A program made the position numbers and the translations under genes. This document shows positions 13,155 through 56,242 of a DNA stretch of 64,000 bases, piece by piece. Below the pieces are notes generated by a model. The model saw nothing but the letters and a program-made list of their open reading frames with translations, made no database searches and had not been told where the DNA came from. Origin of the DNA: a virus; the IMG/VR virus record IMGVR_UViG_3300036770_005504, positions 9,045-73,044 of that record, one strand, 5' to 3'. The stretch's first letter is position 1. Every line of letters starts with the position of its first letter.

Positions 13155-13162
13155 TTTTTTAT

Positions 13163-13879: not shown

Positions 13880-13880
13880 G

Positions 13881-14486: not shown

Positions 14487-14507
14487 GATACGGTTCCTTA
14501 AAATTTT

Positions 14508-14599: not shown

Positions 14600-14608
14600 A
14601 TGTGTCTA

Positions 14609-15082
14609 TTAGATATTCAACAACTTTCTTTTCAACTTGTCAGCAGCACCACTGGCTGCAATAGCATCGGGTTTGACTACTGGCATGACATTACATACCC
14701 CCTTGATATATCCAATTGCTTCGTTTAATACCACATTAGAATTATACATTTCATTGGGATTGATGTCAAGATGAACTTCGATGTCAATGTCTACTACTTC
14801 TACTAATTTTAGATACATATCAGCAGCACGATAAACTTCGTTCATCAACCGTAATCTTGGTCGATTGCGATTTTTTTCGTAATTGATTTCTCTTTCAACT
14901 TGTCCGAAAACACGGCAACCATAACGCCCGCCGATATGAATCACCACAGCAGTGGTATAATCAACATATTCGATATTGTCTTTGTAAACAAGTTCTGAAT
15001 CACACCCGAGATAAATTTTAGTGTCAGGGCCGCAGTTATCTACAAACTCTTTAATTTCTTTGAGATCGATTTGATTTTTCAT
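14609..15082 (-). CDS. YkuK-like RNase H-fold protein
   Basis: IYLGCDS, RLMNEV, EVHLDIN, KPDAIAAS.AAD. Confidence 0.8.
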   Translation of the reverse strand: MKNQIDLKEIKEFVDNCGPDTKIYLGCDSELVYKDNIEYVDYTTAVVIHIGGRYGCRVFGQVEREINYEKNRNRPRLRLMNEVYRAADMYLKLVEVVDIDIEVHLDINPNEMYNSNVVLNEAIGYIKGVCNVMPVVKPDAIAASGAADKLKRKLLNI

Positions 15083-15127
15083 TTACGGGAATCATTGTTA
15101 TTATGAATAGATGTTGAATTAATAGTT

Positions 15128-15210
15128 TGGTGCTGGAGGTGAGACTCGAACTCACGGAGGTTCCCCGCCGGATTACAAATCCGGTGCAATTGCCACTATG
15201 CGACTCCAGC
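15128..15210 (-). tRNA. tRNA with TGT (Thr) anticodon and atypical 12-nt variable arm
   Basis: GCTGGAG/CTCCAGC acceptor stem, CCGGA-TTTGTAA-TCCGG arm, CGGGGAACCTCC variable region, A73, CCA. Confidence 0.85.
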
Positions 15211-15813: not shown

Positions 15814-16086
15814 GTGAAAAAACAACATATCCCTATTCATATAAGACGTCAAGTCATAGAACGAGATGGGCTTTATTGTGTGTATTGTGATGATGATTTG
15901 TCCGACCAAGAAGTTCATCTTGACCATATTATCCCCGAAAGTCAAAGTGGTCCCACTACAGTGGACAATCTACAAGTAACTTGTCGACGATGCAATACTG
16001 CCAAAGGTGTGTTGACTGAAGACGAGTTTGTTAATAGACTACGTATAAGAGCACAAAATATCTTATGGCGCCTGGGATCAAAATAA
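15814..16086 (+). CDS. Small HNH endonuclease
   Basis: RD...CVYC, HLDHIIP..SG, NLQVTCRRCN..KG; TAAATA 5 nt upstream of GTG. Confidence 0.9.
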   Translation: MKKQHIPIHIRRQVIERDGLYCVYCDDDLSDQEVHLDHIIPESQSGPTTVDNLQVTCRRCNTAKGVLTEDEFVNRLRIRAQNILWRLGSK

Positions 16087-16146
16087 TTGCTGTATCTCTC
16101 GAATCAATAATAAAAACATAAATATTGTTATATCGGGAGAATTAAA

Positions 16147-17856: not shown

Positions 17857-18447
17857 AACAATTTGACAAATATGTTCGAGGCGTTCTAAATGTTCAAATG
17901 CACGCCATGGACTAGTGTCTACAGCAATCGCACCATGACGATCCATACCAATGATATTGTATTTTAGACTTCCATCTTCCTGCACCCCGATATTTTCAAT
18001 ACAGGCATCTGCTAATTCTTGAGTAATAGGCGGAATCATGGGCACTGTGGGTCCTACACTGGTATACCTGCTGAGTTCCGGAAACTCATCTACTAATTTT
18101 TGTAGATCGATACCTCGATACATGGCAGCATTGATATAAGTGGGGTGCATATGTAAAACCACACGCACGTCGGTATTGATTTTTCTTTGCAGTCCCCAGT
18201 GCATAGGGATTTCGCCGCTGGGTTCTAATTGTGAGCTGATATCGGTGTATTTCATTTCATACCAATTGTGTTCACCAATTCCGATTTTTTTAAACATATC
18301 GGGTTGTAGTGTTTGTTTTCTAACACCCTTGGGAGTGATGTGAAAATGATCTACAGTGTTATATCGTAGACTGGCATTACCATCTCGGGTGGTAATCCAG
18401 CCACGACGATAACCTTCTCGAAAAATTTCTCCAATTGTTTCTAACAT
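17845..18447 (-). CDS. Class II aldolase/adducin family protein
   Basis: DGNAS.R, ITP.G, PSGEIPMH, VLHMHP, HGAIA, E.LEH. Confidence 0.9.
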   Translation of the reverse strand: MLETIGEIFREGYRRGWITTRDGNASLRYNTVDHFHITPKGVRKQTLQPDMFKKIGIGEHNWYEMKYTDISSQLEPSGEIPMHWGLQRKINTDVRVVLHMHPTYINAAMYRGIDLQKLVDEFPELSRYTSVGPTVPMIPPITQELADACIENIGVQEDGSLKYNIIGMDRHGAIAVDTSPWRAFEHLERLEHICQIVLST

Positions 18448-40677: not shown

Positions 40678-41118
40678 TTATGCTCTTTCTACTTTGAGGA
40701 AACTCTGTAACATCCATCGATGTTTGCCCATGGCATCAATTCTTCCGGCCACAAAATCAGCAACACCTTGTTGGTTTTCACTTTCGGCCGATGAAAAACA
40801 TCGATTTAGTAGATCTATTAAAGTTTGGCAGTCATTTAATAATTCTTCTAACATTAATCTAGCTCGAGGAATTTTAGTTTGTCCAGAAATTAAACTTAAT
40901 TCACTGAATCTTTCAAAACTACCCGGAGTATATTCTCCCAAAATTCTGATATATTCAGCAGTGGGATCTATTGCATCATAGACTTCTTCATAAATTTTAC
41001 CAAAAAATTTATGTAATTGACTGAAGTCTGGACCTTCTACATTCCAATGAAATAATTGTGCCTTTATAACAAACGCATATTCAGTGGCTAATAAAACTTT
41101 GAGATCATCTGTTAACAC
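40678..41118 (-). CDS. dps: Dps/ferritin-like DNA protection protein
   Basis: FHWNVEGPDF.QLH..F...YE....D..AE.IR.LG, K..WML. Confidence 0.92.
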   Translation of the reverse strand: MLTDDLKVLLATEYAFVIKAQLFHWNVEGPDFSQLHKFFGKIYEEVYDAIDPTAEYIRILGEYTPGSFERFSELSLISGQTKIPRARLMLEELLNDCQTLIDLLNRCFSSAESENQQGVADFVAGRIDAMGKHRWMLQSFLKVERA

Positions 41119-41598: not shown

Positions 41599-42462
41599 TT
41601 ATTTTATGGATTTCCATTTTTCAGCTAAACTATCAACAAACTCCGATACTTTGGTAAATCCACGCTCTCGCATATATTGAATAATTGTAGTAGCGTGTCG
41701 ACGATCTGGCCCACTGTCGGGTTTACGAGCGTTGGACAAATCATTGGCCAACCCCTGTGCGGAATTCGATCTATCGTAAGTATACATCAAATTGTATCTT
41801 ATACGATCAGCATCTTTGCTTAATTGTGTTTTGTCTTTGGCTTTTATTAGTTCGATCCATGGTGTCATGTATCCACGGCGGCGACTGGGAACATACCCCC
41901 GAGCAGTGTCCTGACCGGGCAATGCACCACTGGTAGTTTTTCTAGTATCTAACATTCTCCAACTGTTTTTATCACGATAGAAATATGTGTCAATTCCCCT
42001 ACGTTTAGCAGCAATTAGACACTGTCGAGCCCATGCTTTGATTTGATCGTCTGCATCAGGGCTTACATAAATGTGTACCGCAGTTACTCCATCAATGGAT
42101 ATAGTAGGCTCGGCACTGAATACACGATCTTCAGCTTCATGAGCACGATGATGCTGTTGATGAGGAGACCTATTAAGCCAATAATCAACCGGTTGAGATT
42201 TATAGTGTCTGTTAAACCAATTTCCATCTAACACAAACATCACCGCAGAACTACCGATAATGTCATGATATCCACCAGTGCGTGTGCGTGTGGTACTAAG
42301 AAAGTAATATTGGCCGCGCGGCATATACTGTTGTTCCACGCTGCCCATGCCACTGCTGAGTTCAAATTGCCCCGATATTAAAATTTTTCGAGCCGCAGAG
42401 ATATTGGTATAATGATAAGCTACTCTGCTGAGACTTTCTGCAATAAATTCTACAGCTTTCAT
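41599..42462 (-). CDS. Putative ADP-ribosyltransferase-fold protein with MKAxEF tag
   Basis: AYHYT, FLSTTR, HEAEDR resemble ART strand motifs (H/R, S-T-T, ExE). Confidence 0.45.
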   Translation of the reverse strand: MKAVEFIAESLSRVAYHYTNISAARKILISGQFELSSGMGSVEQQYMPRGQYYFLSTTRTRTGGYHDIIGSSAVMFVLDGNWFNRHYKSQPVDYWLNRSPHQQHHRAHEAEDRVFSAEPTISIDGVTAVHIYVSPDADDQIKAWARQCLIAAKRRGIDTYFYRDKNSWRMLDTRKTTSGALPGQDTARGYVPSRRRGYMTPWIELIKAKDKTQLSKDADRIRYNLMYTYDRSNSAQGLANDLSNARKPDSGPDRRHATTIIQYMRERGFTKVSEFVDSLAEKWKSIK

Positions 42463-42935
42463 AGTAGTCCTATTTTGCCTGGATACAGTGGTCCACGTTC
42501 TATTCGTTCACCACCATCATAGTATTTAAGCTCAATGGGCAAACTGTTCCAACCCAAGCGAGCAGCAGCCATTATGCGATGATTGCCTTCGTTGACCCAA
42601 GCTTCTCCATTATGGGCCACCATTATGAATGGCACATACTCCTCACCGGATTTGGTTAAAGGTAAACGACCTGTGTCCTTCATTATCTGCATAATAGCAA
42701 TCAAATCGTCCTGTCGAACATTTCGTTGTTCATTACGCATACCAGGCAAACTTTTCAGTATATCAACCGGTACACGAACATCGCCACGAACCGAGGCTGT
42801 GGTAGCACCAAAGTAAGGTGCTCCCCACCGATCGCGACCTTTTTCTTTAGCATAAGCAATTTTGCTGTTTAACCAATCTTCGTTGGGAACATCAATATTG
42901 AGTTGTGCTTCAATGATGAATTCTCTGGCTTTCAT
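42459..42935 (-). CDS. ParB/Srx-like domain protein with MKAREF tag
   Basis: PFIMV...G.AWVNEGNHRI.AA..LG. Confidence 0.7.
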   Translation of the reverse strand: MKAREFIIEAQLNIDVPNEDWLNSKIAYAKEKGRDRWGAPYFGATTASVRGDVRVPVDILKSLPGMRNEQRNVRQDDLIAIMQIMKDTGRLPLTKSGEEYVPFIMVAHNGEAWVNEGNHRIMAAARLGWNSLPIELKYYDGGERIERGPLYPGKIGLL

Positions 42936-43523
42936 TTAAGACCCCTGAGTTCTGATGTTGACTTCGCTTATGAGTTGGAGACGATCTCGATTAAACCAAG
43001 CAGTGGATTCTACGTCCCACATGCTCATAAGTATGTTATTCAAACTACTGCCCCAAGTGCCGCTCAATCTAGCAGGGTATCTTATACCATCTACCAACTG
43101 ACCTAATTTCGCCCAGGGATAATCATCTATAATACTATCTCCCTGTAACTTGTGCCCAAGAATCTGAGCTATTTTTCTTGCTGCTTGGTCACTACCGATA
43201 TTTAATACTCGTGCTCCGGGTTTAACCTGATATAACTGTCCTTTGGGTGCCAACCATTGAGCCATATTTTCTCGGCACCATTCAGCCCATTGACTGGTAT
43301 ACGAATCTTTGCCGGTGGGTATGGCTGTACTGGTCCATATACTTGCTCGTGGTTTGACACTTTCCTTGACATATTGTGAATTACGAGGAATGTAGAGTTG
43401 ATATTTCAAACTTCGACTGGCGGCCATCTTGTTGCCATTGTCTTGTGCTTGAGCTATTAGAGCTTCAATGGCAGGAGTAATTTCCATATTGCTGTTTTCG
43501 AATGTGAATTCACTGGATCTCAT
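42936..43523 (-). CDS. Hypothetical protein with MRSSEF tag (possible ART-like)
   Basis: ATG at 43523 overlaps upstream stop; IWTSTA, WDVES. Confidence 0.55.
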   Translation of the reverse strand: MRSSEFTFENSNMEITPAIEALIAQAQDNGNKMAASRSLKYQLYIPRNSQYVKESVKPRASIWTSTAIPTGKDSYTSQWAEWCRENMAQWLAPKGQLYQVKPGARVLNIGSDQAARKIAQILGHKLQGDSIIDDYPWAKLGQLVDGIRYPARLSGTWGSSLNNILMSMWDVESTAWFNRDRLQLISEVNIRTQGS

Positions 43524-45865
43524 TTTTTCTTGTTCCTTCCTCGACGCATATTTAGTTGCCACTGAGCCATTCGTCGTCGTTCTCCATTACTGGATTTAGC
43601 TATTTTTTCTAATTGTCCCAATGTGGCTTTTTTTGGTATACCTACTCTACGACTCAGTCCTTTGCGGCCTGGGTTTCGACCGTCAGCAAAGTTTTCCTCC
43701 ACATCTTGCTTTCCGGATATTTTTTTAAGAGTTTGGTGTGCTCGATCAGCTACAAAAGTTCCTTTTTCTTCATCATTGCCGCGATAAAGATACTTGGCAG
43801 TGCCACGATTATCAAGCCAAGGTCCAACTATTTCATATGTTCTTCCAGTTTTAGCACTGTACACTATATCTCCAGGTTCCCACAGCCATGTATCTGGATG
43901 TTGAGCCTTTAGTATAGCCATATTGGCTTGCATCTGTGATACATGGCCACGAACAGCATTACCTAAACTTTGATGAAACCCTTTAAGTTTTTTGCTGTCA
44001 TCGTCGCCCATGCTTTCTGTCACATTTTCATTGAAGGAGGCATTAAGCCATGGATCTGTTATTACCAATGTTTTACCGCGTAGCATGATATTAAAATCAT
44101 CGTCGGACTTTATAAAGTCATTTTCAAAACCCAGTGCTCGGCCACGTTGGGCTACCGACTTTAGTGTTTTATAAAATAGTTCATAGCCCGGATATCGTTG
44201 TTCCAATGGTGTATTATTTTCTACGGAATTGATCATGTCAAATAGCATATCATCATATTCGCTGGGTGCTGGAATATCTAACAATCGTTCTTGGGCAATC
44301 TGAACGAATCTTTCGCCGTCAATATAGAAATCAGCGTAATCCTGTCCTTGTATTTCACCAAATTTTGGAAGATGTGGGTTTTTCTGATTGGCCTGACAGT
44401 ATTTGTAAAATTCTAAGAAAGGGATTTCTGCAGAACGCACAGTTTTTTCATCTTGGGGGATTAATATTTTTATAATATTGCCTTGTTGTTTTGCGTAAAC
44501 TTGAGCGTCTCTACCACCCCCCAGCCGTTGGTAACCCATTTTTTTCATATGGGCATTTATAAGTTTTAAATGGCGTTGATAGTCGATGTCTTCCACCACA
44601 CCTTGTTTGCCAATTTCTTCTATATCTCTGTCGGGCACAATTCGTGATGGAATAGATTTTAGGTCTAATAATTTGTAAGCCCAAAATCTGTGATGCCCAT
44701 CTAATACTTGATAACCATCTTTGTATTTACGAACTAATATAGGAGGAAGTCGATCGCCTTTTTTCAAACCTGCAACAATTTTTTTAACATTAGCTCGGCT
44801 TTTAGGTTGACTCATTTTACTGTCTGGTTCAAACCCCACAAGTTTATTGACCGGAATGTTGATAACTGGTAATCTATCAAACCCGGTGTCATCTACCTCA
44901 GCACCAAAATAGTCAGGTTCTGTATAGAGTTTTATCTTGCCTTCCGCCACATTTTGCCGAGCATTTTCTTCTATTTCTATGTTCGGTAAATGAGTATCAA
45001 ATTTCAATGACAGTGCAGTTCGAAATTTATCGTATTCACCGATTGATAAAAATGTAAACGTATTGAAAATTGATAAATCTCTCATGGTCTTAGATGGATA
45101 AGTTCGTTTGCCCAATTTGGTTTTAAATGTCAATCCATCATTGCTTTTTGCTACAAATACTGCAATTGATGGTGCATCAAGCGGCATTATTTTGTTACCT
45201 ACTAGAGATAATGGAACTACAATATATTTTTTACCTTTGGTCAATTGCGACGACATGTTAAATAGAGATACAAAATACTCTTTCTTGTCAATGTCAACTG
45301 ATTCAGTTAAACTACCTTTTGTATAAAATTCCTCAAAAATGGACATCTTATCTTCCATGCTCAGGCCTTCGTCTAACTCTGACCAGACGATGCCTTCCGC
45401 TACATCCTTTTTTATTTTTTTGAAAATGTAGTGTTGATGATAAGCATCATCTTTTGTGCTAAGTGCATACCCCAAGCCAGCAGCATATTTTTTTGCTAGA
45501 GCTGTATATAACTTTTGACGGCTACCTGTTTCGTCCTCATGCTTAATTGCGGAAAATCTAATTTCATTAGGCTGTTGATTGTTGATAAATTGCTGTATGG
45601 CCGATAAAACGGTTGCAAAGATTCGTTGTTGATCCCCTTGTCCGGTTTTTTTAATAGTGCCGCCACGATAAAAATCCACATCCCAATCATTATAAAGCGG
45701 ACTTTCCTTATTAAAATTAATTTCTAGATTTGTGCCATCTGGCAGAGCAGCCCAGGTCTTAAGTGGTTCACCAAAGTCTTCTTGATACCAGTCTATTAGG
45801 TTATAGGGTTGGTTGAGACTTTCATTAAGTTTACTTAAATCGATAATAAATTCTTTTGCTCTCAT
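43520..45865 (-). CDS. Multi-module polyprotein (unknown domains, ParB/Srx domain, protein-kinase-like domain, basic tail)
   Basis: PPILVR...QVLDGHHR; LGGGRDAQVY..IIKI..PHLPK..NIMLR..VITDP; modules joined by (K/Q)xVxE linkers. Confidence 0.75.
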   Translation of the reverse strand: MRAKEFIIDLSKLNESLNQPYNLIDWYQEDFGEPLKTWAALPDGTNLEINFNKESPLYNDWDVDFYRGGTIKKTGQGDQQRIFATVLSAIQQFINNQQPNEIRFSAIKHEDETGSRQKLYTALAKKYAAGLGYALSTKDDAYHQHYIFKKIKKDVAEGIVWSELDEGLSMEDKMSIFEEFYTKGSLTESVDIDKKEYFVSLFNMSSQLTKGKKYIVVPLSLVGNKIMPLDAPSIAVFVAKSNDGLTFKTKLGKRTYPSKTMRDLSIFNTFTFLSIGEYDKFRTALSLKFDTHLPNIEIEENARQNVAEGKIKLYTEPDYFGAEVDDTGFDRLPVINIPVNKLVGFEPDSKMSQPKSRANVKKIVAGLKKGDRLPPILVRKYKDGYQVLDGHHRFWAYKLLDLKSIPSRIVPDRDIEEIGKQGVVEDIDYQRHLKLINAHMKKMGYQRLGGGRDAQVYAKQQGNIIKILIPQDEKTVRSAEIPFLEFYKYCQANQKNPHLPKFGEIQGQDYADFYIDGERFVQIAQERLLDIPAPSEYDDMLFDMINSVENNTPLEQRYPGYELFYKTLKSVAQRGRALGFENDFIKSDDDFNIMLRGKTLVITDPWLNASFNENVTESMGDDDSKKLKGFHQSLGNAVRGHVSQMQANMAILKAQHPDTWLWEPGDIVYSAKTGRTYEIVGPWLDNRGTAKYLYRGNDEEKGTFVADRAHQTLKKISGKQDVEENFADGRNPGRKGLSRRVGIPKKATLGQLEKIAKSSNGERRRMAQWQLNMRRGRNKKK

Positions 45866-45868
45866 TTT

Positions 45869-48800
45869 TTATCCTATGATCGGTAATACATCAATTTCTG
45901 ACGAGTTACCAATGGTTAAGTTGCCCAGTCTTTGTTGATCCAATAGCCAACGTGTGGCGAATCTCACTGCATCTGCTTGAACATTGCCCACACCGCCGAA
46001 TCTATGTACTTCTTCACCATCAATGGTAATTCGCCAGGATCCAGTAAATCCGCCCTGAGATCGTTGCTGTTGGAGATCCCGAGTGCTACCTGGAATAGGC
46101 TGGGACTGAGTAGTTGGCTCTGCTGGAATTTCACGTACTTCTGCATCTATTTCCACGTCAGGATGTCGTTCGCGTCTCTGTGCTAAGAACTGTTCGGCGG
46201 CCTGTTGCGTAGGAAATCTACGCAACGGTATCTCTTGCCCTATTGGATATTCACCAGGCTGACGAGCAAAGCGTTGACTTGCCCTGACCCAAATACCCCA
46301 ATTACCAGTGCTACCACTCTGTAGTATATCCAAAGATCTTGGAGGTATGAAACTGCTTCTGGGCTGTACAGGTACGAGTTCGTAAGTCCACGCATCTCCC
46401 ATAGTTAAGCGGTCAAATTCAGTTTCAGCTTCGGCTGGGGTATTTCTGGTAAAGTAATTTACAGGTCTGCCATCATGTTGGCGAACCACAGCCCAATTGG
46501 CATCGGGTTGAGTTTCAGGAGCAGTCAACTGTGGTCGTTGAGGTGTTTGGGTGGTCTGTGGTTGTGCTCTGCGTACATCATACAGGTTTCTATTAGGGCC
46601 CGAAAATATACTGTCAAAATACTGTAGTGCCTCTTCATCACTATTGGCATTGAAAGTGTCAATTACTTGATTTCTTTGAAGGTTAATGATTTCGTAAGTA
46701 TTTCCAGTAGTCGAGCCAGGTAAAGGTTTTTTAGCAGTGCTGCGTTTCAACTGTGCTTGACGCAAGAAACTCTTTAGTGCCTGTTTGGGTAATTCACCTG
46801 AACTGTATTTAACAAAATAGTCAATGGGGTCATCCTCAGACTTTGGAGCCAAAAGTTTACGAAGTTTGCTGAGGTATTCTTTACGGTACTTATCGGGATC
46901 CATGGCAGCATCTAAGGCCACAATGAATCTCATCAAAGTAGATACTAATTTTTTGGGATCTTCATCTAACCAGTCCCCTCCAGGGCTACGAAATTCTATA
47001 TATTTTCCCTGAGGATGAATGCTGGTATATTTGCCTACATCACTGCCCTGTATACTTCTGCTGGCGAATTTGTTCAATCCTGAACGCATTTGATCAAATA
47101 AACCTTGGACTTGATCCGGAGATAAATTTTTTGCTCTTGCTTGAATTTTACTTAGTGCGCTGGTTGCATATGTATTAGCACTGCGACCAAACTGATCTAG
47201 CACATATTGGTCTCCGACTAACAATGCTAGTTTTACGAAATCTAAATTTTTATCGTCATACCCGGGAATACTGACATTCATATGTAGACCCGTGCTGTTA
47301 TTAGTGTAGGCACCGATTCGGTTAGCCCACTGACGAACTTTTTCTAAATCATCCAGCATTTCAGGAAAGGTCAGCGGTGGACTGACAAACTCCAGTCCCA
47401 TGTCGTCGCTGTCATGAGGTCTTAAACTGCCATCGGGTTCTACCACATATTTGCCTGGCTCACGCCGAGCACTATGATAAGATGAACTGGCATTAATTGG
47501 TCGGCCAATGGCTTCACTGAAGTCATTTGCAATGGCATCAATGCTGGTACTAGATTCCGATTCTTCCGTGGTCCAGTAAGGCCAATGGATAGTATCGGAA
47601 TATTCATCGTGCACATCACTCATATTTACTAGACCAGCTTCGCCCAACCATTCCTCTTCTAAATCTGGGTCTTCCAGAAAATCTTCTAGAGCCTGCTCTC
47701 GAATATTGTCTAATCTATCACCACCCTCTCTGATAATTAGATCGGCGGCTTCTTCGGCTTGTGTTCGTGTTAACCCGTCGAGCCTGTCGGGATCTAACCC
47801 CAATAACTCAGCAATATCCTCTACATCCATGTGATCTGTTACATAGTCATAGACAAAAGTTTCTTTGTTCGATTCCCACCGTGCGTCAAATGCTTCCGAG
47901 GTCCAATCACTGAAATCGCTTCTTAGCTGTATCTCCAAACTTCTGACAGCATTACGACTATTATAGTCACGGTCATCGAAAAAATTCACAATGTCGGTGA
48001 TGCTGCGAGTGCCCTCATTATAGTCCATGTCCATGACCATTTCGGGATAATCGACGCCGCCTGCAACATTGGGCACAATCATTTCAAATTCTATGCCCAC
48101 ACGAGCATCGATATCCTTGACTGCAGCAGCCAGACTGGTTGGATCCATACGGATTTCTAATAGGTCATCCTCGTTGATCAGAGTTGAATTACTAGAGAAT
48201 TTATTTGAAATTTGTTTTAACTTATTTTCTAAATGGTCAATTGTGTCATACTCGGCATTATAAAGAATTCCATAACCGCCGGCCTTGTTCCATTTTTCGA
48301 TATTTGATGGTTTGTCATCTATTAAAACATTGGGTATTCCGTCACTGGTTGCATATTTTTCTTTGTTACGAGTAAAAACTATATCGCTAGGCAAGGGAGA
48401 TAAATTTGATAATAGCCACTGTTTTTTATTGTTGCTGCTGTTTTGTATATCGCCTCGCAACGGGCTGGAGCAAATCCCATAATGATTTCCACCATACTTT
48501 AATGCCAGATTGACCACTTGGTCACTGGTAGAAAATTTGTTTAATTTTCTAAAAAAGTCAGTACCTAAAATTTTGGGTATATTGGGATCGTTACGACTAC
48601 TGATGTCTGGATCGACTCCAAATAAAGTTCGATATCGACCGGCAAAATCAGCCAACACACCATCCATATCTAGATAAATTTTAAGATTGGGTTTCTTTTG
48701 TTGACTTTCGTTGTGTTTTTTCTTTTTGCCTTGACAATGTGCTCGTTGGCTAAATCCTTTGGGGCGGTCACAATCGATAGATTTTTTATATTTGGTTGAC

Positions 48801-50179
48801 CACTCTTCTTGCAGTTTTTTTGCCAACAATAGTGCAGGTCTACCTTGTGTATCAGTTTTTAGATGTAATTTATTGGCTTGACGTCCGGTTTCTCCTGGGC
48901 GAATATCTTTGGTCAATGCTGTGGAAAATCTAGGATCATTTTTTTGTTTTTCTGTGGGGATATATCCAGATGCTTCTGACAATTTGATATCTGTAAATAA
49001 TTCTGGTCTACGCTCGGCAAATCCTCGCATGATTTGTCCAGCCAATGCATTGGCTTCGTTTTCGTAGGGACTACCAGTCTGTCCAGCATCGTCGGGAAAT
49101 TTTCCTCGATGACGTTGTGCACAGTGCACTAACTCGTGAGCCAATGTTCTAATTATATCTAATATATGTCTATTAGAAATACTTAATTGTAAATGATTGT
49201 TGTCCGGACTATATTGTCCAAAGCTACCGGTCTTGGCAGTCCATCGGGGATCACTATGTAAAATTATCTTTGGACGATTGACAATTTTTAACTCGTCCAT
49301 GATCTCATTGGCAAACAATTTTATTTGAGATTCAATATTTTCGTTGATACTTTCACCACCACCATCACCACCACCACCTTCTCCGCTGTCAGCCCAACTA
49401 AATCCCGGATACCAATACCCACTGAAACCATACTTGACTCGAGATTTTTTACGACGTTTTTTTCGTTCTGTCAGACTGAGTTCTTGATCATGTAACTGAT
49501 TTCTACGATCATAGAGTTTTTTAATAAGACCATGATGTCTTAATAGTTTAAAAGTTAAATTTTCTACACTGAATTCGCCTCGATCTGCCAACCCCGAAAC
49601 CCGCATATTTTTAATTTTATCAATCAATGATTGAAGTCTTTCAAGACTGTTGTCATTGACAGCTGAATTAATTCTGTTTTCAAGATCTTGATATTTACTG
49701 ATCACACTGTCATCATTGATGTCGGTTTTGATTTTTTTTGGAACTATTAACCATTGATTATTGAGTAGACTATAGATTCCTTGACTGTAATGAGGTTGAT
49801 TGGCATTTTGCACATATAATTCAACATCATATCCACCTATAGTGATATTGTGCTGGTCATTGTATTGGTATTTTTTTGCATCAAATAATTCTCTATAGAC
49901 TTGACTACGATCTGCCTCAGGAAGATCCACTACTAGATGTAGATCTATATCACTGTGATCGTTGTAATTATAACCGGCATTACTACCACTGACGGTGATA
50001 TCTTTGAGCCCAATGTCACTGACCCCTAGAAATTCACGAAAATCGTTGGCTATATCCAATAATATATTTCGAACTTTGGGATTCAAATTTTGATTTTCAT
50101 CCCATAATACAGGATTCAGACGATCGTGAAATTTAACATAGTCTGACAGTTGTAGAGAATTAAGTTCTTTGAGGTTCAT
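45869..50179 (-). CDS. Polyvalent protein: Pol-beta nucleotidyltransferase, HExxH metallopeptidase, NT5C-type HAD phosphatase, amidoligase and C-terminal repeats
   Basis: GSNA...SDIDLH; TLAHELVH...ENEA; YLDMDGVLADF...LIDD...N..KW; GIEFE...PDGSL...LEFVSPP...TGLHMN...IEFRSP. Confidence 0.85.
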   Translation of the reverse strand: MNLKELNSLQLSDYVKFHDRLNPVLWDENQNLNPKVRNILLDIANDFREFLGVSDIGLKDITVSGSNAGYNYNDHSDIDLHLVVDLPEADRSQVYRELFDAKKYQYNDQHNITIGGYDVELYVQNANQPHYSQGIYSLLNNQWLIVPKKIKTDINDDSVISKYQDLENRINSAVNDNSLERLQSLIDKIKNMRVSGLADRGEFSVENLTFKLLRHHGLIKKLYDRRNQLHDQELSLTERKKRRKKSRVKYGFSGYWYPGFSWADSGEGGGGDGGGESINENIESQIKLFANEIMDELKIVNRPKIILHSDPRWTAKTGSFGQYSPDNNHLQLSISNRHILDIIRTLAHELVHCAQRHRGKFPDDAGQTGSPYENEANALAGQIMRGFAERRPELFTDIKLSEASGYIPTEKQKNDPRFSTALTKDIRPGETGRQANKLHLKTDTQGRPALLLAKKLQEEWSTKYKKSIDCDRPKGFSQRAHCQGKKKKHNESQQKKPNLKIYLDMDGVLADFAGRYRTLFGVDPDISSRNDPNIPKILGTDFFRKLNKFSTSDQVVNLALKYGGNHYGICSSPLRGDIQNSSNNKKQWLLSNLSPLPSDIVFTRNKEKYATSDGIPNVLIDDKPSNIEKWNKAGGYGILYNAEYDTIDHLENKLKQISNKFSSNSTLINEDDLLEIRMDPTSLAAAVKDIDARVGIEFEMIVPNVAGGVDYPEMVMDMDYNEGTRSITDIVNFFDDRDYNSRNAVRSLEIQLRSDFSDWTSEAFDARWESNKETFVYDYVTDHMDVEDIAELLGLDPDRLDGLTRTQAEEAADLIIREGGDRLDNIREQALEDFLEDPDLEEEWLGEAGLVNMSDVHDEYSDTIHWPYWTTEESESSTSIDAIANDFSEAIGRPINASSSYHSARREPGKYVVEPDGSLRPHDSDDMGLEFVSPPLTFPEMLDDLEKVRQWANRIGAYTNNSTGLHMNVSIPGYDDKNLDFVKLALLVGDQYVLDQFGRSANTYATSALSKIQARAKNLSPDQVQGLFDQMRSGLNKFASRSIQGSDVGKYTSIHPQGKYIEFRSPGGDWLDEDPKKLVSTLMRFIVALDAAMDPDKYRKEYLSKLRKLLAPKSEDDPIDYFVKYSSGELPKQALKSFLRQAQLKRSTAKKPLPGSTTGNTYEIINLQRNQVIDTFNANSDEEALQYFDSIFSGPNRNLYDVRRAQPQTTQTPQRPQLTAPETQPDANWAVVRQHDGRPVNYFTRNTPAEAETEFDRLTMGDAWTYELVPVQPRSSFIPPRSLDILQSGSTGNWGIWVRASQRFARQPGEYPIGQEIPLRRFPTQQAAEQFLAQRRERHPDVEIDAEVREIPAEPTTQSQPIPGSTRDLQQQRSQGGFTGSWRITIDGEEVHRFGGVGNVQADAVRFATRWLLDQQRLGNLTIGNSSEIDVLPIIG

Positions 50180-50190: not shown

Positions 50191-50217
50191 TGATTTAGTA
50201 AAATCCATAGTATTCAG

Positions 50218-50245
50218 AATAATCCCGCATTGATGCGGGATTATT
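50218..50245. terminator. Terminator-like hairpin
   Basis: AATAATCCCGCAT-TG-ATGCGGGATTATT inverted repeat downstream of the GT gene. Confidence 0.7.
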
Positions 50246-50270
50246 TGATATATCAATAAACAACAATAAT

Positions 50271-53198: not shown

Positions 53199-55433
53199 TT
53201 AACTTTTTTTCTTGATTCGAATGGGTTTAGCAGAGATCACAGTTTGTTGATTTTTGATATCAATGTTACATTGAGTATTCTCGAGATTTTCAAACAAAAT
53301 TTTCCTTGCCAGTGGAATCTTGATCATTTCGTCGATTTTTCTCGACAGCTGACGAGCACCCATTCGATTGTCATAGCCATTTACTGCCAAATAGTTTAAT
53401 GCAGATTCTGTGACATTGATTCGAATATTTTTGGACAAGAGACTTGTTTGCAGTTCGTTGATAAATTTTTCTACAATCTTTCTCACAGCCGACTGATCCA
53501 GCTTGTTGAATTTACAAATAACATCAATTCTGTTTCTTAGCTCAGGACGAAAAAAGTCTCGAACTGCTCGATCTTCACTACCGGTCTTTTCTAGATCAAC
53601 AGAAAATCCAATATTGTTTTGCTCGTTGTCTTGACTGCCTAAATTACTGGTCATGATGACAATACAATTTTTTAAATTGACTTTTTTGCCATTGTTGCCA
53701 GTCACAGTGCCTTCGTCTAAGATTTGCAATAAAATGTTACTGACATCCGGATGTGCCTTTTCAATTTCATCAAACAACAATACAGCATGAGGATGTCGAT
53801 TAATATCACTGATTAATTTGCCACCGCCTACATTACCATCTTCAAAACCTACATAACCCGGTGGTGCACCAATCAGTGAACTGACAGTGTGTTTTTCTTG
53901 AAATTCACTCATATCATATTTCAATAGTGTCATATCGAGATTATGTGCCAACAATTTGGCCAGTTCGGTTTTACCTGTGCCAGTGGGTCCTAAAAATAGA
54001 TAACTAGCAATGGGTTTGTTGGTATTACTCAATCCCGAGAAACTGATATAAATTCTTTCCAAAACTTGATTGACAATAGAATCTTGACCATATAGTGACT
54101 GTCTAATGGAATTTTCTAAATTAGAAATTTTTTGACTGCTGGTATTTTGCAAATTCTCTAAGCCAATACCTGTGATTTTACTGATCTGTTGTTGAATCAG
54201 TGTTCGATCGATCCGGGCCGGGTTGGGTAAAATTCGTTGTCGAGCACAAGCCGAATCTAATAGATCAATGCTTTTGTCAGGATTTTTCTTGTCTGTGATG
54301 TATCTATTTCCTAACTCCAGTGCTGCCGAAATCGCACTATTGTCAATGACAACATTATGAAACTGTTCAAGACGAACACTGACTCCAATTAAAATTTGTT
54401 CGGTGGTAGTGAGATCAGGCTCGTCAATGGCTAACTTATGAAATCTACGCATCAATGCACGATCTTTTTCAAAACTTTCGTAGAATTCCTCCCATGTGGT
54501 ACTGGCAATTACTTTGAAATGACCTTTGGTGATTGCTGGTTTGATCATATTGGCAAAATCTAAACTACTACCACTGCCGGACCCAGCACCTTTCATGGTA
54601 TGAGCTTCATCAATGAACAAGATACAATTTTTTTTGATTTCCAATGCCGAGATAATCAATTTCAATTTTTCTTCAAAATCTCCCCTATATTTACTACCGG
54701 CCAAAATGTTACCAATTTCCAAACTCCAAACTTCATAACCTTTGAGAAATTCAGGAACTTGTTGATCAATGATATCTTGTGCTAACCCTTCGATGATACT
54801 GGTTTTTCCTACACCTGGATCACCAACTAACAGAATATTGGATTTAAATTTTCTAGCCAATACTGTGATCATTTCGTCTAATTCATCTCGACGACCAATC
54901 ATGGGTTCAAGTTTCTTTTCTTCTGCCAGTCGACTGAGATTAATACAGTATTCTTCTAGAATACTGTCAGCTTGTTTAATGCTGATACTATGGTCACTAT
55001 GGTAATTTTCTTGATAAAAATTCACAAATTCTTGTTTGTTAATACCATATTTCAGCAAAAAATAGTGAGTATGACTATTGGTTTCGCCCATCAATGAAAG
55101 ATATAGGTCAATAGTGGTCACTGTTCTACGACCGGTAAACAGAACTTGAGTTAATGCACGATTAAATGTTCTTTCCAATGCATTGGTTTTTTTTGGTGAG
55201 AAATCAGAACTAGTTGACAGTGACGGAGAGATTGCCAACAAATAATCAATAACTTCTTTTTCGAAACTGTCAACGTCAACACCGAATTTTATTAGAATAT
55301 TGTTAAATGGTTCGTGTTGTAGTAATGCCAATAGCAAGTGCTCAGTTAATACATATTCGTGACGAAAGTTTTTTGCCAATTTAACACTGTGTTCAACGAT
55401 GGATTCAATTTCGTGATTTTGTGATGAATTCAT
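53199..55433 (-). CDS. clpA: ClpA-like AAA+ chaperone
   Basis: Clp-N domain (EHLLLALL), GDPGVGKT, FIDEAH, GPTGTGKT, DMSEFQE, GAPPGYVG, DEIEKAH; no ClpB middle domain. Confidence 0.92.
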   Translation of the reverse strand: MNSSQNHEIESIVEHSVKLAKNFRHEYVLTEHLLLALLQHEPFNNILIKFGVDVDSFEKEVIDYLLAISPSLSTSSDFSPKKTNALERTFNRALTQVLFTGRRTVTTIDLYLSLMGETNSHTHYFLLKYGINKQEFVNFYQENYHSDHSISIKQADSILEEYCINLSRLAEEKKLEPMIGRRDELDEMITVLARKFKSNILLVGDPGVGKTSIIEGLAQDIIDQQVPEFLKGYEVWSLEIGNILAGSKYRGDFEEKLKLIISALEIKKNCILFIDEAHTMKGAGSGSGSSLDFANMIKPAITKGHFKVIASTTWEEFYESFEKDRALMRRFHKLAIDEPDLTTTEQILIGVSVRLEQFHNVVIDNSAISAALELGNRYITDKKNPDKSIDLLDSACARQRILPNPARIDRTLIQQQISKITGIGLENLQNTSSQKISNLENSIRQSLYGQDSIVNQVLERIYISFSGLSNTNKPIASYLFLGPTGTGKTELAKLLAHNLDMTLLKYDMSEFQEKHTVSSLIGAPPGYVGFEDGNVGGGKLISDINRHPHAVLLFDEIEKAHPDVSNILLQILDEGTVTGNNGKKVNLKNCIVIMTSNLGSQDNEQNNIGFSVDLEKTGSEDRAVRDFFRPELRNRIDVICKFNKLDQSAVRKIVEKFINELQTSLLSKNIRINVTESALNYLAVNGYDNRMGARQLSRKIDEMIKIPLARKILFENLENTQCNIDIKNQQTVISAKPIRIKKKS

Positions 55434-55455: not shown

Positions 55456-55484
55456 ATTATATATTAGTCAAAATACATTGTCAA
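55456..55484 (-). promoter_or_regulatory. Consensus sigma70 promoter for clpA
   Basis: TTGACA-17 nt-TATAAT. Confidence 0.8.
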
Positions 55485-56242
55485 TGCTGATTTGACTGAG
55501 ATTCCTTTTTGATCAATTCCAACAATTCTGGGGAAATCTCCGAGGGTATACTGACCTGCAGTTTCATTAATATATCACCTCTACGATTATTTCGGTCTAA
55601 AAACCCGCGGCCACGAATACGCATTATAGATTGAGGTTTTGTATTGGGTAATACTGCTACTGAAAATCGTCGGCCTGTTGGATCGGTGATTTCATACTCA
55701 CCTCCTGCAATCAATGTCCAAATTGATACCGAACAATTAGTGATTAGATCCAGACCTGACTTGAACCAAATTGGATCCGGTTTGATTCTAAATATCACAA
55801 TTAGATCTTCTCGATTTGGCCCAAGACGATCATAACGCACCATATTACCATCTTCTACACCCATTGGGATGTCAATTTGAATATTATGTGTAGATCCAGT
55901 TGCGGTTGTTACTGTGATAATTTTTTTAGTGGGATTTAAAATATCACGTATGTCTAGCCAAAGATTAATTTTGCTAGTCTGTTTCTGCGTGAAAGTTTGA
56001 TGAAACATGTCAAACGGAGAAAATCCATGATCAAAAAACCCTCTCGAATGAATTGGATTGTCGTAGAGATGTTTTTTTTCTGGATCACTGAGTGTATTGT
56101 ATGCAGCCTGTATTTCTTGAAATCGGTCAGTGTCACCACCATGGTCTGGGTGGTGTTGACTGGCTAATTTTCGGTAGGCACGTTTGATATCGTCGGCAGT
56201 GGCACTGGGAGGAACTCCCAGTGTTTTATAGTAATCGTTCAT
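55481..56242 (-). CDS. dnaJ: DnaJ/CbpA-type co-chaperone
   Basis: J-domain DYY..LG...IKRAYRKLA..HHPD plus C-terminal domain (GDI). Confidence 0.92.
   Translation of the reverse strand: MNDYYKTLGVPPSATADDIKRAYRKLASQHHPDHGGDTDRFQEIQAAYNTLSDPEKKHLYDNPIHSRGFFDHGFSPFDMFHQTFTQKQTSKINLWLDIRDILNPTKKIITVTTATGSTHNIQIDIPMGVEDGNMVRYDRLGPNREDLIVIFRIKPDPIWFKSGLDLITNCSVSIWTLIAGGEYEITDPTGRRFSVAVLPNTKPQSIMRIRGRGFLDRNNRRGDILMKLQVSIPSEISPELLELIKKESQSNQH

What the first reader, a model, noticed from the sequence alone, without database searches (positions are those of the whole stretch)
43520..45865. Cassette-like polyprotein whose modules are joined by a repeated V-x-E linker conserved at DNA level
Seen: the 781-aa ORF splits into about six unrelated modules at KKDVAEG (45393-45410), RQNVAEG (44940-44957), KQGVVED (44589-44608), NENVTES (~44011-44030) and KQDVEEN (43692-43712). 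Four linkers are similar in DNA (GATGTAGCGGAAGG, AATGTGGCGGAAGG, GGTGTGGTGGAAGA, GATGTGGAGGAAAA). A ParB/Srx domain and a protein-kinase-like domain each sit exactly between two linkers. Known: T4 gp21 prohead protease cuts after Glu in (I/L)-x-E motifs of packaged proteins. Inference: this is a capsid-loaded effector 'magazine' cut into separate enzymes during head maturation and injected. The short repeat may also act as a microhomology joint for adding or removing modules, giving an integron-like array at the protein level.
Basis: partly seen in the sequence, partly recalled or inferred. Interest (0 to 1): 0.85.

Follow-up and report, generated by a model that had tools for sequence, protein, structure and literature searches.

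The report
Capsid-tagged cargo polyprotein of jumbo phage
This giant-phage gene strings five unrelated protein modules between a T4-like head-targeting tag and a conserved small basic protein, joined by short linkers that look like head-protease cutting sites and also mark where modules are swapped between related phages.

Summary
Homology breakpoints in 150 representative relatives fall on them. The modules are mutually unrelated, ParB sits between linkers 2 and 3, and a kinase-like fold sits between linkers 3 and 4.

- An N-terminal cap, MRAKEFIID, resembles the T4 internal-protein capsid targeting sequence (MKTYQEFIAE).
- A sixth site, LNE15.
- The C-terminal 57 aa form a very basic protein found once per genome. 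In many relatives it is joined directly to a 9-aa cap.

Relatives with 67-71% identical PolB carry T4-type portal, gp21-family protease and gp23 capsid genes. Junctions across the family read [ILVM]-x-E, which matches gp21 specificity. The linker is also conserved as DNA: GVAE is encoded by GGTGTGGCGGAA at 29 of 49 sites, using a rare Ala codon. One module indel against a close relative breaks inside the linkers.

My best reading (confidence about 0.65) is an expanded internal-protein gene whose product is loaded into proheads, cut into separate cargo proteins and injected. Packaging and cleavage are inferred, not shown. I rate it a new variant of the T4 internal-protein and polyvalent-protein theme, seen only in uncultured jumbo phages.

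The parts
45839..45865 (-). Cap, aa 1-9 (MRAKEFIID). It resembles the T4 capsid targeting sequence and ends in Asp instead of Glu.
   Evidence: Sequence. The T4 CTS is MKTYQEFIAE (PMC8442874). Ninety-four of 276 collected relatives start with the cap pattern; residue 9 is E in 82, D in 10 and Q in 2.
45821..45829 (-). Sixth candidate cleavage site, L13-N14-E15, just before module 1 proper (SLNQPY...).
   Evidence: One search lists it. In relatives module 1 ([SA][LF][ND][QK]PY) follows [IL]-x-E, for example ITE|AFDKPY and LYE|SLDKPY.
45395..45820 (-). Module 1, aa 16-157, function unknown. It ends in linker 1, V155-A-E157 (45395-45403).
   Evidence: PHROG 6387 at 2.7e-12 and PHROG 16075 at 1.7e-10, both of unknown function. 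It gives 58 domain hits in 40 of 196 relatives, some in tandem. The PDB profile search had no hit better than E 0.0059, and the listed stretches lie in alignment regions that include flanks from the longer relatives.
44942..45394 (-). Module 2, aa 158-308, function unknown. It ends in linker 2, V306-A-E308 (44942-44950).
   Evidence: Found in 22 of 196 relatives, where it is usually preceded by VAE|G[LM]SWS. No Pfam or PDB profile hit.
44591..44941 (-). Module 3, aa 309-425, ParB/Srx-like N-terminal domain (DGHHR). It ends in linker 3, V423-V-E425 (44591-44599).
   Evidence: Pfam ParB_N at 9.8e-6, 26.0 bits against a cut-off of 26.3. PHROG ParB-like at 7.8e-10. It gives the best-matched stretch in 88 of 150 representatives. 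The upstream junction in relatives reads ...QGVAE|GK[IV]KL.
44015..44590 (-). Module 4, aa 426-617, a minimal protein-kinase-like domain. It ends in linker 4, V615-T-E617 (44015-44023).
   Evidence: AF2 mean pLDDT is 86.8, and the last 7 residues fall below 50. Foldseek PDB gives 82 hits at E <= 0.001, including PknB, GAK, Mps1, LicA and APH(3'). G24, G26, K41, D158, N167 and D179 are invariant in 12 sequences. PHROG 15752 (T7 0.7-type kinase) scores E = 9e-4.
43694..44014 (-). Module 5, aa 618-724, function unknown. It ends in linker 5, V722-E-E724 (43694-43702). The close relative L001 lacks it.
   Evidence: Found in 9 of 196 relatives. L001 DNA is 92% identical over aa 422-617, then resumes at aa 722, with an 11-nt overlap at the linker. 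No Pfam, PHROG or PDB hit.
43523..43693 (-). Tail, aa 725-781 (NFADG...RRGRNKKK). A conserved small basic protein (18 K/R against 3 D/E), proposed as the internal-protein core.
   Evidence: It is 78-97% identical in most of 57 IMG/VR loci, with three divergent variants at 49-53%. There is one copy in each of 5 of 5 phage records. Seventy-nine clusters of 39-104-aa proteins carry it, and 25 of 77 have a 9-aa cap joined directly to it. AF2 predicts three helices at pLDDT 73, with no PDB match.
45869..50179 (-). Upstream 1436-aa polyvalent protein with a zincin-like HExxH domain, an NT5C-like domain and an amidoligase-like domain. It lies in the same frame as the 781-aa ORF, separated by TAA AAA.
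   Evidence: Pfam and PHROG hits. Junction sequence. The homologue in G002 is 1851 aa and ends in the tail. Its NT5C part occurs as cargo fused to a tail in L050 and L035.
42936..43523 (-). Downstream 195-aa gene with cap MRSSEFTFE. Its start overlaps the stop of the 781-aa ORF (ATGA).
   Evidence: PHROG 8582, unknown function.
42459..42935 (-). 158-aa gene with cap MKAREFIIE and a weak ParB-like signal.
   Evidence: It is 65% identical to the first module of P0023, a 344-aa protein that ends in a tail.
41599..42462 (-). 287-aa gene with cap MKAVEFIAE, function unknown.
   Evidence: It is 49-54% identical to modules of tail-bearing proteins L037 (450 aa), L041 (407 aa) and P0015 (600 aa).

Best explanation
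The ORF is an expanded internal-protein gene of an uncultured jumbo phage of about 340 kb in the T4 superfamily.

Its minimal form in relatives is a 9-aa N-terminal cap (MRAxEF[IV]xE) joined directly to a 55-59-aa very basic protein, which here forms the tail. This mirrors T4 internal proteins, which are a 10-aa capsid targeting sequence plus a basic protein.

In this gene five unrelated cargo modules sit between cap and tail: unknown, unknown, ParB/Srx-like, kinase-like, unknown. Each ends in [ILV]-x-E.

Proposed mechanism (inferred):
1. The cap docks the precursor to the scaffolding core of the prohead.
2. The gp21-family prohead protease cuts after each exposed linker Glu.
3. This frees about six proteins that stay in the head with the DNA and enter the host at injection.
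4. There the enzymes act in host takeover or counter-defence.

The linker is also conserved as an 18-nt DNA stretch. It is where modules are gained, lost and exchanged between related phages, most likely by recombination at this short homology.

Shown here: the anatomy, the family-wide junction motif, coincidence of breakpoints with linkers, codon-level conservation, and T4-type head genes in relatives. Inferred: packaging, cleavage, injection, what the modules do in the host, and the recombination mechanism.
For: 1. Cap. MRAKEFIID shares the EFIxE core with the T4 CTS MKTYQEFIAE (PMC8442874 passage). In T4 the processing determinants are residues 8 and 10, the I and E of I-x-E, and Asp at 10 blocks processing but not targeting (PMC9026906 passage). 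Four consecutive window genes carry the cap, as do eight in the syntenic locus L001. Only 4 convincing cap ORFs exist in the complete 337-kb genome G002.

2. Cleavage logic. T4 gp21 cuts after Glu in I/LxE (PMC12991175 passage). Before the tail, 133 distinct junction 6-mers have P1 = E in 131, P3 = I/L/V/M in 115 and both in 113, against a background of 1.8% per position. Of the 10 proteins whose cap ends in Asp, 4 have a further ITE or VAE immediately before the tail, and the window protein has LNE six residues on. For 4 (P0008, P0066, P0145, L036) no nearby second site was identified, and 1 has the Asp directly at the tail junction.

3. Protease present. Two of 2 complete relatives and 3 of 5 records encode Peptidase_S77. 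G002 has Portal_T4, Peptidase_S77 and Gp23 in a row. Its scaffold has 6.6 [ILVM]xE per 100 aa against 1.25 background, and 4 of the 5 sites in its capsid protein lie in the first 42 residues, before the Gp23 domain starts at aa 54. PolB of these records is 67-71% identical to the window's.

4. Modularity. Boundaries of matched stretches fall on linkers: 119 of 150 starts and 129 of 150 ends. Of 254 well-supported breakpoint clusters in an all-against-all comparison, 82% lie within 6 aa of an [ILVM]xE Glu, against 20% at random. L002 lacks modules 2 and 3 exactly, and L004 joins module 3 to the tail exactly.

5. Minimal form. Twenty-five of 77 short tail proteins are a 9-aa cap plus tail. The tail is single-copy in 5 of 5 records.

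6. The linker end of the module 4 model is disordered, with pLDDT below 50.
Against: - No proteomic or biochemical data exist. No cultured relative carries the protein: there were 0 hits among 50,697 isolate phage records for the whole protein at E <= 1e-5 or for the tail at E <= 1.
- The window's own contig is about 21% complete and holds no prohead protease, so the protease evidence comes from relatives.
- The cap is one residue shorter than the T4 CTS and has no counterpart of Tyr4, one of the two targeting residues.
- P3 is mostly Val here, whereas T4 prefers Ile or Leu.
- Seven further [ILVM]xE lie inside modules, so the motif alone does not define a cut.
- The locus sits beside replication genes, 4 kb from PolB, not with head genes. 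No exact TATAAATA lies near the operon: the window has 2 against 5.7 expected by chance.
- The strong nucleotide conservation of GVAE linkers is not required by a protease site and points to some additional constraint.
- The homologue set was chosen by similarity to this protein, so counts are dominated by the ParB module (88 of 150) and the tail.
Confidence: 0.65

Rival explanations
1. It is a cytoplasmic polyvalent protein that is not loaded into the head. The linkers are either plain flexible connectors or are cut by another protease, for example the zincin-like (HExxH) domain of the 1436-aa protein encoded just upstream. This is the processing route Iyer et al. proposed for polyvalent proteins.
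For: The upstream ORF has a metalloprotease-like PHROG hit (phrog_87, 5.7e-5) and a visible HELVH motif. PMC5512222 proposes MPTase-mediated processing of polyvalent proteins (passages). The locus lies in the replication region. No exact T4 late-promoter motif was found at the operon.
Against: - The cap matches the T4 CTS core.
- Cap-plus-tail minimal proteins mirror T4 internal proteins.
- The junction motif matches gp21-type specificity, including compensation for Asp-ending caps.
- Many tail-bearing proteins have no metalloprotease module, so that domain cannot be a general in-cis processing enzyme.
Confidence: 0.17
2. The linkers are mainly a DNA feature: a short dispersed repeat (caaGGTGTGGCGGAAggc) that serves as, or is left by, recombination joints. 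The encoded V-A-E is a by-product and is not cut. The protein acts as one multi-domain chain.
For: - GVAE is encoded by GGTGTGGCGGAA at 29 of 49 distinct sites, where about 0.6% is expected from codon usage (my multiplication of the frequencies; counts).
- GTGGCGGAA occurs at 41 distinct places against 4.6 expected, and 37 of these are in frame as VAE.
- Linker Ala is GCG in 15 of 28 cases, against 91 of 1261 elsewhere.
- ORFs often stop 0-4 codons after a linker.
Against: - Junctions with other codons and residues (IEE, IDE, VDE, LEE, ISE, MSE) keep hydrophobic-x-Glu without DNA identity, which shows selection at the protein level.
- G002 has linker-type junctions but only 2 GTGGCGGAA sites, and neither is in a linker.
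- P1 = E in 131 of 133 junctions is not explained by a DNA repeat.
Confidence: 0.1
3. The whole protein is packaged intact. The conserved basic tail is the element that binds DNA or the capsid interior and carries the cargo along, and the linkers are not cleaved.
For: The tail is the most conserved part and is single-copy. It is very basic and helical. Some phage cargo, such as the N4 virion RNA polymerase, is packaged unprocessed (PMC5512222 passage).
Against: - Cap-bearing neighbours lack a tail, so the tail is not needed for whatever the cap does.
- The tail is always preceded by a gp21-type site.
- A chain of more than 80 kDa with six folded domains would have to unfold to pass the tail tube. 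Separate small proteins fit the T4 precedent better.
Confidence: 0.08

Closest known systems
[quoted passage not shown]
   Same: - A short N-terminal tag with an EFIxE core, removed after Glu by gp21.
- A small basic mature protein.
- Unrelated cargo proteins that share only the leader.
- Clustering in a hypervariable locus.
- Injected anti-defence roles: Ip1-3 block GmrSD enzymes.
Sources: PMC8442874, PMC9026906, PMC12373910 and PMC2839356, passages read.
   Different: - T4 IPs are single-cargo genes cut once. Here up to six or more products are encoded in one reading frame, separated by internal sites.
- The cap is 9 aa rather than 10.
- A single conserved core protein (the tail) ends the array.
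- According to PMC2839356, shuffling in T-evens is attributed to intergenic regulatory repeats. Here the breakpoints lie inside the ORF, at linker codons.
T4 Alt (packaged ADP-ribosyltransferase)
   Same: A large enzyme loaded into the head through an N-terminal propeptide. It is trimmed by gp21 at both ends (PMC9026906 passage).
   Different: Alt is a single enzyme with terminal propeptides only. It has no internal sites that release several unrelated domains.
Polyvalent proteins of phages and conjugative elements (Iyer et al. 2017, PMC5512222)
   Same: Many unrelated effector domains in one polypeptide, including ParB-like, kinase, nucleotidase, amidoligase and zincin peptidase. They are predicted to be delivered with the DNA and cut into units. 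The 1436-aa upstream ORF fits this class.
   Different: That paper proposes self-processing by an embedded MPTase. A term search of its text found 0 uses of 'linker' and 0 of 'capsid targeting'. Here a CTS-like cap, gp21-type linker sites, a conserved terminal core protein and a DNA-conserved joint define the architecture.
Giant-phage ejection proteins processed by prohead proteases (phiKZ, 201phi2-1, SPN3US)
   Same: Head-internal proteins cut after Glu at a three-residue motif by a T4-related protease: A-x-E in SPN3US, and Ser at P3 in the one phiKZ site quoted (SLE-13; PMC5694885 passages).
   Different: Those have long N-terminal propeptides of 100 or more residues and single mature products. 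No cap-cargo-tail polyproteins are described there.
Integron gene cassettes
   Same: An ordered array of exchangeable units bounded by a short repeated sequence.
   Different: No integrase or attC-like recombination site was looked for or seen. The units are in-frame protein modules, and the repeat is a coding 18-mer. This is an analogy only.

Membership tests
T4-type internal (CTS-tagged, head-packaged) proteins | N-terminal targeting peptide of about 10 aa with hydrophobic-x-Glu at its end | tested here: met
   The cap MRAKEFIID compares with the T4 MKTYQEFIAE. The family cap is M[KR]xx[ED][FILV]xx[EDQ] in 94 of 276 proteins, with E at position 9 in 82. In this protein position 9 is Asp, and the next site is LNE15.
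T4-type internal (CTS-tagged, head-packaged) proteins | A gp21-family prohead protease and T4-type head genes in the same phage | tested here: inconclusive
   Absent from the window's own contig, which is 21% complete. Present in 2 of 2 complete relatives and 3 of 5 records with 67-71% identical PolB.
T4-type internal (CTS-tagged, head-packaged) proteins | Cleavage after Glu by the prohead protease, presence in virions, injection | not testable with these tools
   Only the site motif could be tested. P1 = E and P3 = I/L/V/M together hold at 113 of 133 tail junctions.
T4-type internal (CTS-tagged, head-packaged) proteins | Sequence homology of the mature part to a known T4 IP | tested here: not met
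   No tblastn hit of the protein or the tail in 50,697 isolate phage records. T4 IPs themselves share only the leader (PMC12373910), so this feature is weak as a criterion.
Polyvalent proteins (Iyer et al. 2017) | Two to 15 unrelated effector-type domains in one phage polypeptide | tested here: met
   Five cargo modules plus the tail, mutually unrelated. They include a ParB-like and a kinase-like module.
Polyvalent proteins (Iyer et al. 2017) | Embedded MPTase or other peptidase proposed to process the protein | tested here: not met
   The 781-aa ORF has no peptidase hit. A zincin-like domain is present in the adjacent 1436-aa ORF.
ParB/Srx N-terminal domain (module 3) | Match to the Pfam ParB_N profile over its curated cut-off | tested here: inconclusive
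   26.0 bits on the module and 24.5 on the whole protein, against a cut-off of 26.3. Supported by several PHROG ParB-like families down to 7.8e-10. The DGHHR motif is visible in the sequence.
Protein-kinase-like fold (module 4) | Bilobal kinase fold with Gly-rich loop, beta-3 Lys, catalytic Asp/Asn and metal-binding Asp | tested here: met
   AF2 mean pLDDT 86.8. Foldseek probability is 1.00 to PknB, GAK, Mps1 and APH, with 82 hits at E <= 0.001 and TM 0.34-0.47 for this short domain. G24, G26, K41, D158, N167 and D179 are invariant in 12 sequences. No Pfam kinase family matched. Assigning these residues to kinase motifs is my reading.
Integron cassette array | Tyrosine-recombinase integrase with attI/attC sites | not tested
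   No search for an integrase or attC was made. Only the repeated coding 18-mer was studied.

The most novel reading that the evidence does not exclude
The linker may do two jobs. As protein it is a prohead-protease site. As DNA, the 18-mer caaGGTGTGGCGGAAggc, kept with a rare Ala codon, is a portable in-frame recombination joint.

Together with the cap-to-core junction of an ancestral internal-protein gene, it would form a landing pad into which any cargo module can be dropped and still be loaded, released and injected. That would be an integrase-free, protein-level cassette system which a whole clade of jumbo phages uses to evolve its injected arsenal.
Probability: 0.35. Interest if true: 0.85.

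Novelty: new variant of a known kind. Interest (0 to 1): 0.72.

Why it matters
If this reading is right, a large and so far uncultured clade of jumbo phages delivers a customisable cocktail of enzymes into the host from a single gene. The search found 2901 representative proteins at E <= 0.001 in 1.84 billion.

It would extend the T4 internal-protein model from single-cargo genes to polyproteins with stoichiometric loading.

It would give a simple sequence rule (cap, [ILVM]-x-E, tail) for finding injected phage proteins in metagenomes. Many of those would be candidate counter-defence factors of unknown fold, such as modules 1, 2 and 5.

It would offer a natural design for packaging several foreign proteins in T4-type heads.

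The nucleotide-level conservation of the joint would be a rare documented case of in-frame domain shuffling guided by a short coding repeat in viruses.

Tried and rejected
- Isolate phages. tblastn of the whole protein (E <= 1e-5) and of the tail (E <= 1) against 50,697 records found nothing, so no proteomics from a cultured relative can be used.
- Tail identity. No Pfam or PHROG family matched; the only Pfam row was PF0610-like_N at E 0.0049 and 17.5 bits against a cut-off of 33, which I treat as noise. Foldseek PDB on the tail model gave no match at E <= 0.001. The Atlas returned only unnamed viral clusters of 58-68 aa.
- Modules 1, 2 and 5. Profile searches of the PDB gave nothing better than E 0.0059, and those rows map to flanking regions of the alignments. 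A PHROG row named 'Shiga toxin subunit B' for module 2 (E 0.045, 14.9 bits, 23 residues) is noise.
- Whole-protein alignment for folding (A2, 43 sequences). Single-module proteins were misplaced, with 17-24% identity to the query, so I did not fold the whole protein.
- First all-against-all breakpoint test. Without a support filter the enrichment was only about twofold: 32% against 17% within 5 aa over 1136 clusters. It became clear only for breakpoints supported by at least 3-6 alignments.
- DNA-level breakpoint test. Twenty-nine of 52 fall within 6 nt of a site, against 8% at random, but most are the tail junction, so it adds little beyond the tail's conservation.
- T4 late promoter. The window has 2 TATAAATA against 5.7 expected, and none at the operon. 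Expression timing is undetermined.
- tRNA explanation for the rare GCG codon. The window encodes tRNA-Pro, tRNA-Ser and tRNA-Thr but no tRNA-Ala.
- Host. The tail occurs in only 5 contigs of metagenome-assembled genomes among 185,579 species genomes (Nitrosopelagicus, Crocinitomicaceae, Haliscomenobacter, Burkholderiaceae, Agathobacter). These are probably mis-binned phage contigs, so no host call is possible.
- Earlier notes of this scan: none for this genome or for the tail sequence.
- Literature. Searches for the linker and cap strings (one irrelevant hit), for 'capsid targeting' with polyprotein and prohead protease, and with anti-defense, packaged and injected listed no paper describing this architecture. 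Repoila et al. 1994 is not held and is cited only through PMC2839356 and PMC12373910.

Full report
**1. What is in the window**

The window comes from a 73,044-bp viral contig estimated at about 21% complete. It encodes a family B DNA polymerase whose best isolate matches are jumbo myoviruses: 47.7% identity to Sinorhizobium phage Phosso and 45.3% to Agrobacterium phage Atu_ph07. Five uncultured phage records carry a PolB that is 67-71% identical. Two of them are complete, at 346,856 and 337,119 bp with terminal repeats. The window therefore belongs to an uncultured clade of jumbo phages in the T4 superfamily.

**2. The observation**

The ORF at 43520-45865 (minus strand) encodes 781 aa.
The coordinates agree within 1-2 nt. 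About 2.2 V-x-E are expected by composition.
- The six segments are unrelated to each other; the best pairwise BLASTP E-value is 0.099.
- Module 3 (aa 309-425) is ParB/Srx-like. Pfam ParB_N scores 26.0 bits against a cut-off of 26.3, and PHROG ParB-like families reach 7.8e-10.
- Module 4 (aa 426-617) folds with mean pLDDT 86.8 into a minimal kinase-like domain. Foldseek gives 82 PDB matches at E <= 0.001, led by PknB, GAK, Mps1, LicA and APH(3'). TM scores are modest (0.34-0.47) because the domain is short. Gly-loop, Lys, Asp, Asn and Asp positions are invariant in 12 sequences. The last seven residues of the model, which are linker 4, have pLDDT below 50.
- Modules 1, 2 and 5 have no assignable function.

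**3. Independent test of the boundaries**

A search of 1.84 billion representative proteins found 2901 relatives at E <= 0.001. For the 150 best, the matched stretch starts within 10 aa of a linker or terminus in 119 and ends there in 129. Sixteen per cent of positions would qualify by chance, and seven stretches cross a linker by more than 25 aa on both sides.

Among 57 IMG/VR loci, which gave 46 distinct proteins:
- L002 lacks modules 2 and 3 exactly (query 15-153 is followed by 420-781).
- L004 joins module 3 to the tail (294-426, then 718-779).
- L010 joins module 1 to the tail.

In an all-against-all comparison of 197 proteins, 82% of 254 well-supported breakpoint clusters lie within 6 aa of an [ILVM]-x-E Glu, against 20% for random positions. 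Without the support filter the enrichment is only about twofold. The homologue set was selected by similarity to this protein, so the ParB module (88 of 150) and the tail dominate these counts.

**4.

(a) The cap. The protein starts MRAKEFIID. The three downstream genes start MRSSEFTFE (true start at 43523, overlapping the stop as ATGA), MKAREFIIE and MKAVEFIAE. Ninety-four of 276 collected relatives begin with this cap. The syntenic locus L001 has eight such genes in a row. The complete genome G002 has only four convincing ones.

The T4 capsid targeting sequence is MKTYQEFIAE. Internal proteins are cut once next to it, and about 1000 molecules stay in the head (PMC8442874, passage). In T4, targeting depends mainly on residues 4 and 7 and processing on residues 8 and 10. 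Asp at 10 blocks processing but not targeting (PMC9026906, passage).

(b) The tail. The last 57 aa (NFADG...RRGRNKKK, 18 K/R against 3 D/E) are 78-97% identical in most of the 57 loci; three divergent variants are 49-53% identical. Similarity begins right at linker 5. The tail occurs once in each of 5 of 5 phage records. Seventy-nine clusters of short proteins carry it, and in 25 of 77 a 9-aa cap is joined directly to it, as in MRAxEF[IV]xE|NFADG. That is the architecture of a T4 internal protein.

(c) A sixth site. LNE (aa 13-15) precedes module 1 proper. In relatives this module is likewise preceded by [IL]-x-E.

**5. The junction motif**

Before the tail, 133 distinct junction 6-mers have Glu at P1 in 131, I/L/V/M at P3 in 115 and both in 113. 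The background is 1.8% per position. Before the ParB module the junction reads ...QGVAE|GK[IV]KL in many different upstream contexts.

T4 gp21 cuts after Glu in I/LxE (PMC12991175, passage). Related giant-phage proteases also cut after Glu in a three-residue motif (PMC5694885, passages).

Of the 10 proteins whose cap ends in Asp:
- four have a further ITE or VAE immediately before the tail;
- the window protein has LNE six residues on;
- four (P0008, P0066, P0145, L036) have no nearby second site that I could identify;
- one has the Asp directly at the tail junction.

The compensated cases fit the T4 rule that Asp is not processed.

**6. The protease**

Peptidase_S77 is present in 2 of 2 complete relatives and in 3 of 5 records. 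It is absent from the window's own incomplete contig.

In G002 the genes for Portal_T4, an acidic protein, Peptidase_S77, a coiled-coil scaffold and Gp23 lie in a row. The scaffold carries 24 [ILVM]xE in 366 aa, which is 6.6 per 100 aa against a background of 1.25. Four of the five sites in the capsid protein lie in its first 42 residues (LLE|G, LLE|G, ILE|N, LRE|N), upstream of the Gp23 domain that starts at aa 54. This fits T4-like specificity in the clade, with the same P1' residues (G, N) as the linkers. It is an inference, not a demonstration.

**7. DNA-level conservation**

- In the window, both linker Ala codons are GCG, which is 3% of Ala codons, and 4 of 5 linker Val codons are GTG, which is 28%.
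- In 47 tail ORFs from IMG/VR, linker Ala is GCG in 15 of 28 cases, against 91 of 1261 elsewhere.
- Across all the DNA held, GVAE is encoded by GGTGTGGCGGAA at 29 of 49 distinct sites. About 0.6% is expected from codon frequencies, which is my multiplication of the values.
- GTGGCGGAA occurs at 41 distinct places against 4.6 expected, and 37 of these are in frame as V-A-E. The shared extension is caaGGTGTGGCGGAAggc, and the flanks are unrelated.
- Junctions with other residues (IEE, IDE, VDE, LEE and so on) keep the peptide pattern without DNA identity.

Two layers of constraint therefore exist: a protein motif everywhere, and one widely copied DNA version of it.

**8. Evidence for exchange at the joint**

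L001 is syntenic with the window on both sides, but the cassette region is rearranged. Its DNA is 92% identical to the window over exactly aa 422-617. It then continues at aa 722-781, and the two alignments overlap by 11 nt in the linker, so module 5 is precisely present or absent.

Several ORFs stop 0-4 codons after a linker and are followed at once by a cap gene. Some proteins carry internal ENFAD remnants in front of a module, as expected if cargo was inserted at the cap-to-tail junction.

The neighbouring window genes occur elsewhere as modules of tail-bearing proteins. Parts of the 1436-aa upstream polyvalent protein, such as its NT5C domain, occur as cargo fused to a tail. The whole stretch 41599-50179 is therefore one cargo array.

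**9. Mechanism proposed**

1. The cap targets the precursor to the prohead core.
2. The gp21-family protease cuts at exposed linker Glu residues.
3. The tail (a small basic protein) and the freed modules remain with the DNA and are injected.
4. The ParB-like and kinase-like enzymes and the unknown modules act early in the host.

This is inferred from the T4 precedent. Nothing here shows packaging or cleavage. I put it at about 0.65. The rivals are a cytoplasmic polyvalent protein processed otherwise or not at all (0.17), a purely DNA-level repeat (0.10), and intact packaging via the tail (0.08).

**10. Comparison with what is known**

The closest systems are:
- T4 internal proteins and Alt. 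They share the leader, gp21 processing and hypervariable loci, and Ip1-3 are injected GmrSD inhibitors that share only the leader (PMC12373910, passages).
- The polyvalent proteins of Iyer et al. (PMC5512222). These are predicted to be injected and self-processed by an embedded MPTase. A term search of that text found no 'linker' and no 'capsid targeting'.

Plasticity of the T-even IP loci has been ascribed to intergenic regulatory repeats (PMC2839356, passage citing Repoila 1994). In the present system the exchange points are in frame, at the protease-site codons.

A recalled precedent, not checked here, is the exchange of T-even tail-fibre adhesin segments at conserved His-box motifs.

My literature searches (search listings and abstracts only) turned up no description of cap-cargo-tail polyproteins. 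The library lacks most subscription journals, so this is not proof of absence.

**11. Verdict**

I rate it a new variant of a known kind and of high interest for phage biology.

Noticed in passing
window 45863-45871 (minus strand): The 1436-aa ORF and the 781-aa ORF are in the same reading frame, separated only by TAA AAA before the ATG (...PIIG * K MRAKEF). The G002 homologue is a single 1851-aa protein that ends in the tail. The stop may therefore be a recent split, or a readthrough point.
   Followed up: partly
L025 3619-4213: Four QGVAE[GN] linkers spaced 192, 192 and 210 nt apart separate tandem modules of about 64 aa that begin [TS]EQVYKV. This is a repeat array of small cassettes in one ORF.
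   Followed up: no
homologues P0027, P0050, P0036 and P0071 (C-termini): Several relatives end a few residues after a linker with a short acidic peptide such as ...NVTE|STDYLEEK or ...GVAE|DYLPEK. This may be a second, very short kind of C-terminal piece.
   Followed up: no
L003, L004, L027, L040, L043, L045; window ORF 45869-50179, about aa 228-270: A recurrent module often follows the cap directly. It is a Lys/Arg run followed by a Gly/Tyr/Pro-rich stretch that ends in GG(V)GE (RKKRKK...AAYGPGPYG...YSGDGG..GVGE). It also lies inside the 1436-aa ORF. Its function is unknown.
   Followed up: no
L004 (aa about 145-160), L008, L013: Internal ENFAD(S/G/D) remnants of the tail's first residues sit in front of other modules. 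They look like scars of insertion at the cap-to-tail junction.
   Followed up: partly
window 50215-50250 (minus strand): A GC-rich hairpin (AATCCCGCATCAATGCGGGATT) followed by TTCT lies upstream of the 1436-aa ORF. An AATAAATA, one mismatch from the T4 late-promoter consensus as I recall it, lies close to its ATG. The cargo operon may start here.
   Followed up: no
window 16001-18000: This 2-kb stretch has unusual composition: GC 0.46 against about 0.37 elsewhere, and AT skew +0.23. It overlaps a 534-aa ORF on the plus strand (16252-17856), whereas most genes are on the minus strand.
   Followed up: no
window 13078-15210: Three tRNA genes, Pro(TGG), Ser(GCT) and Thr(TGT), found by ARAGORN and Rfam. 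None reads the rare GCG codon used in the linkers.
   Followed up: yes
window 40678-41118; 53199-55433; 55481-56242: The phage encodes a ferritin/Dps-like protein (Pfam Ferritin, 1.9e-21) and a ClpB-like double AAA+ chaperone (AAA_2, 4e-53). A neighbouring ORF starts MNDYYKTLGVPPSA, which looks like a J-domain by eye; that was not tested.
   Followed up: partly
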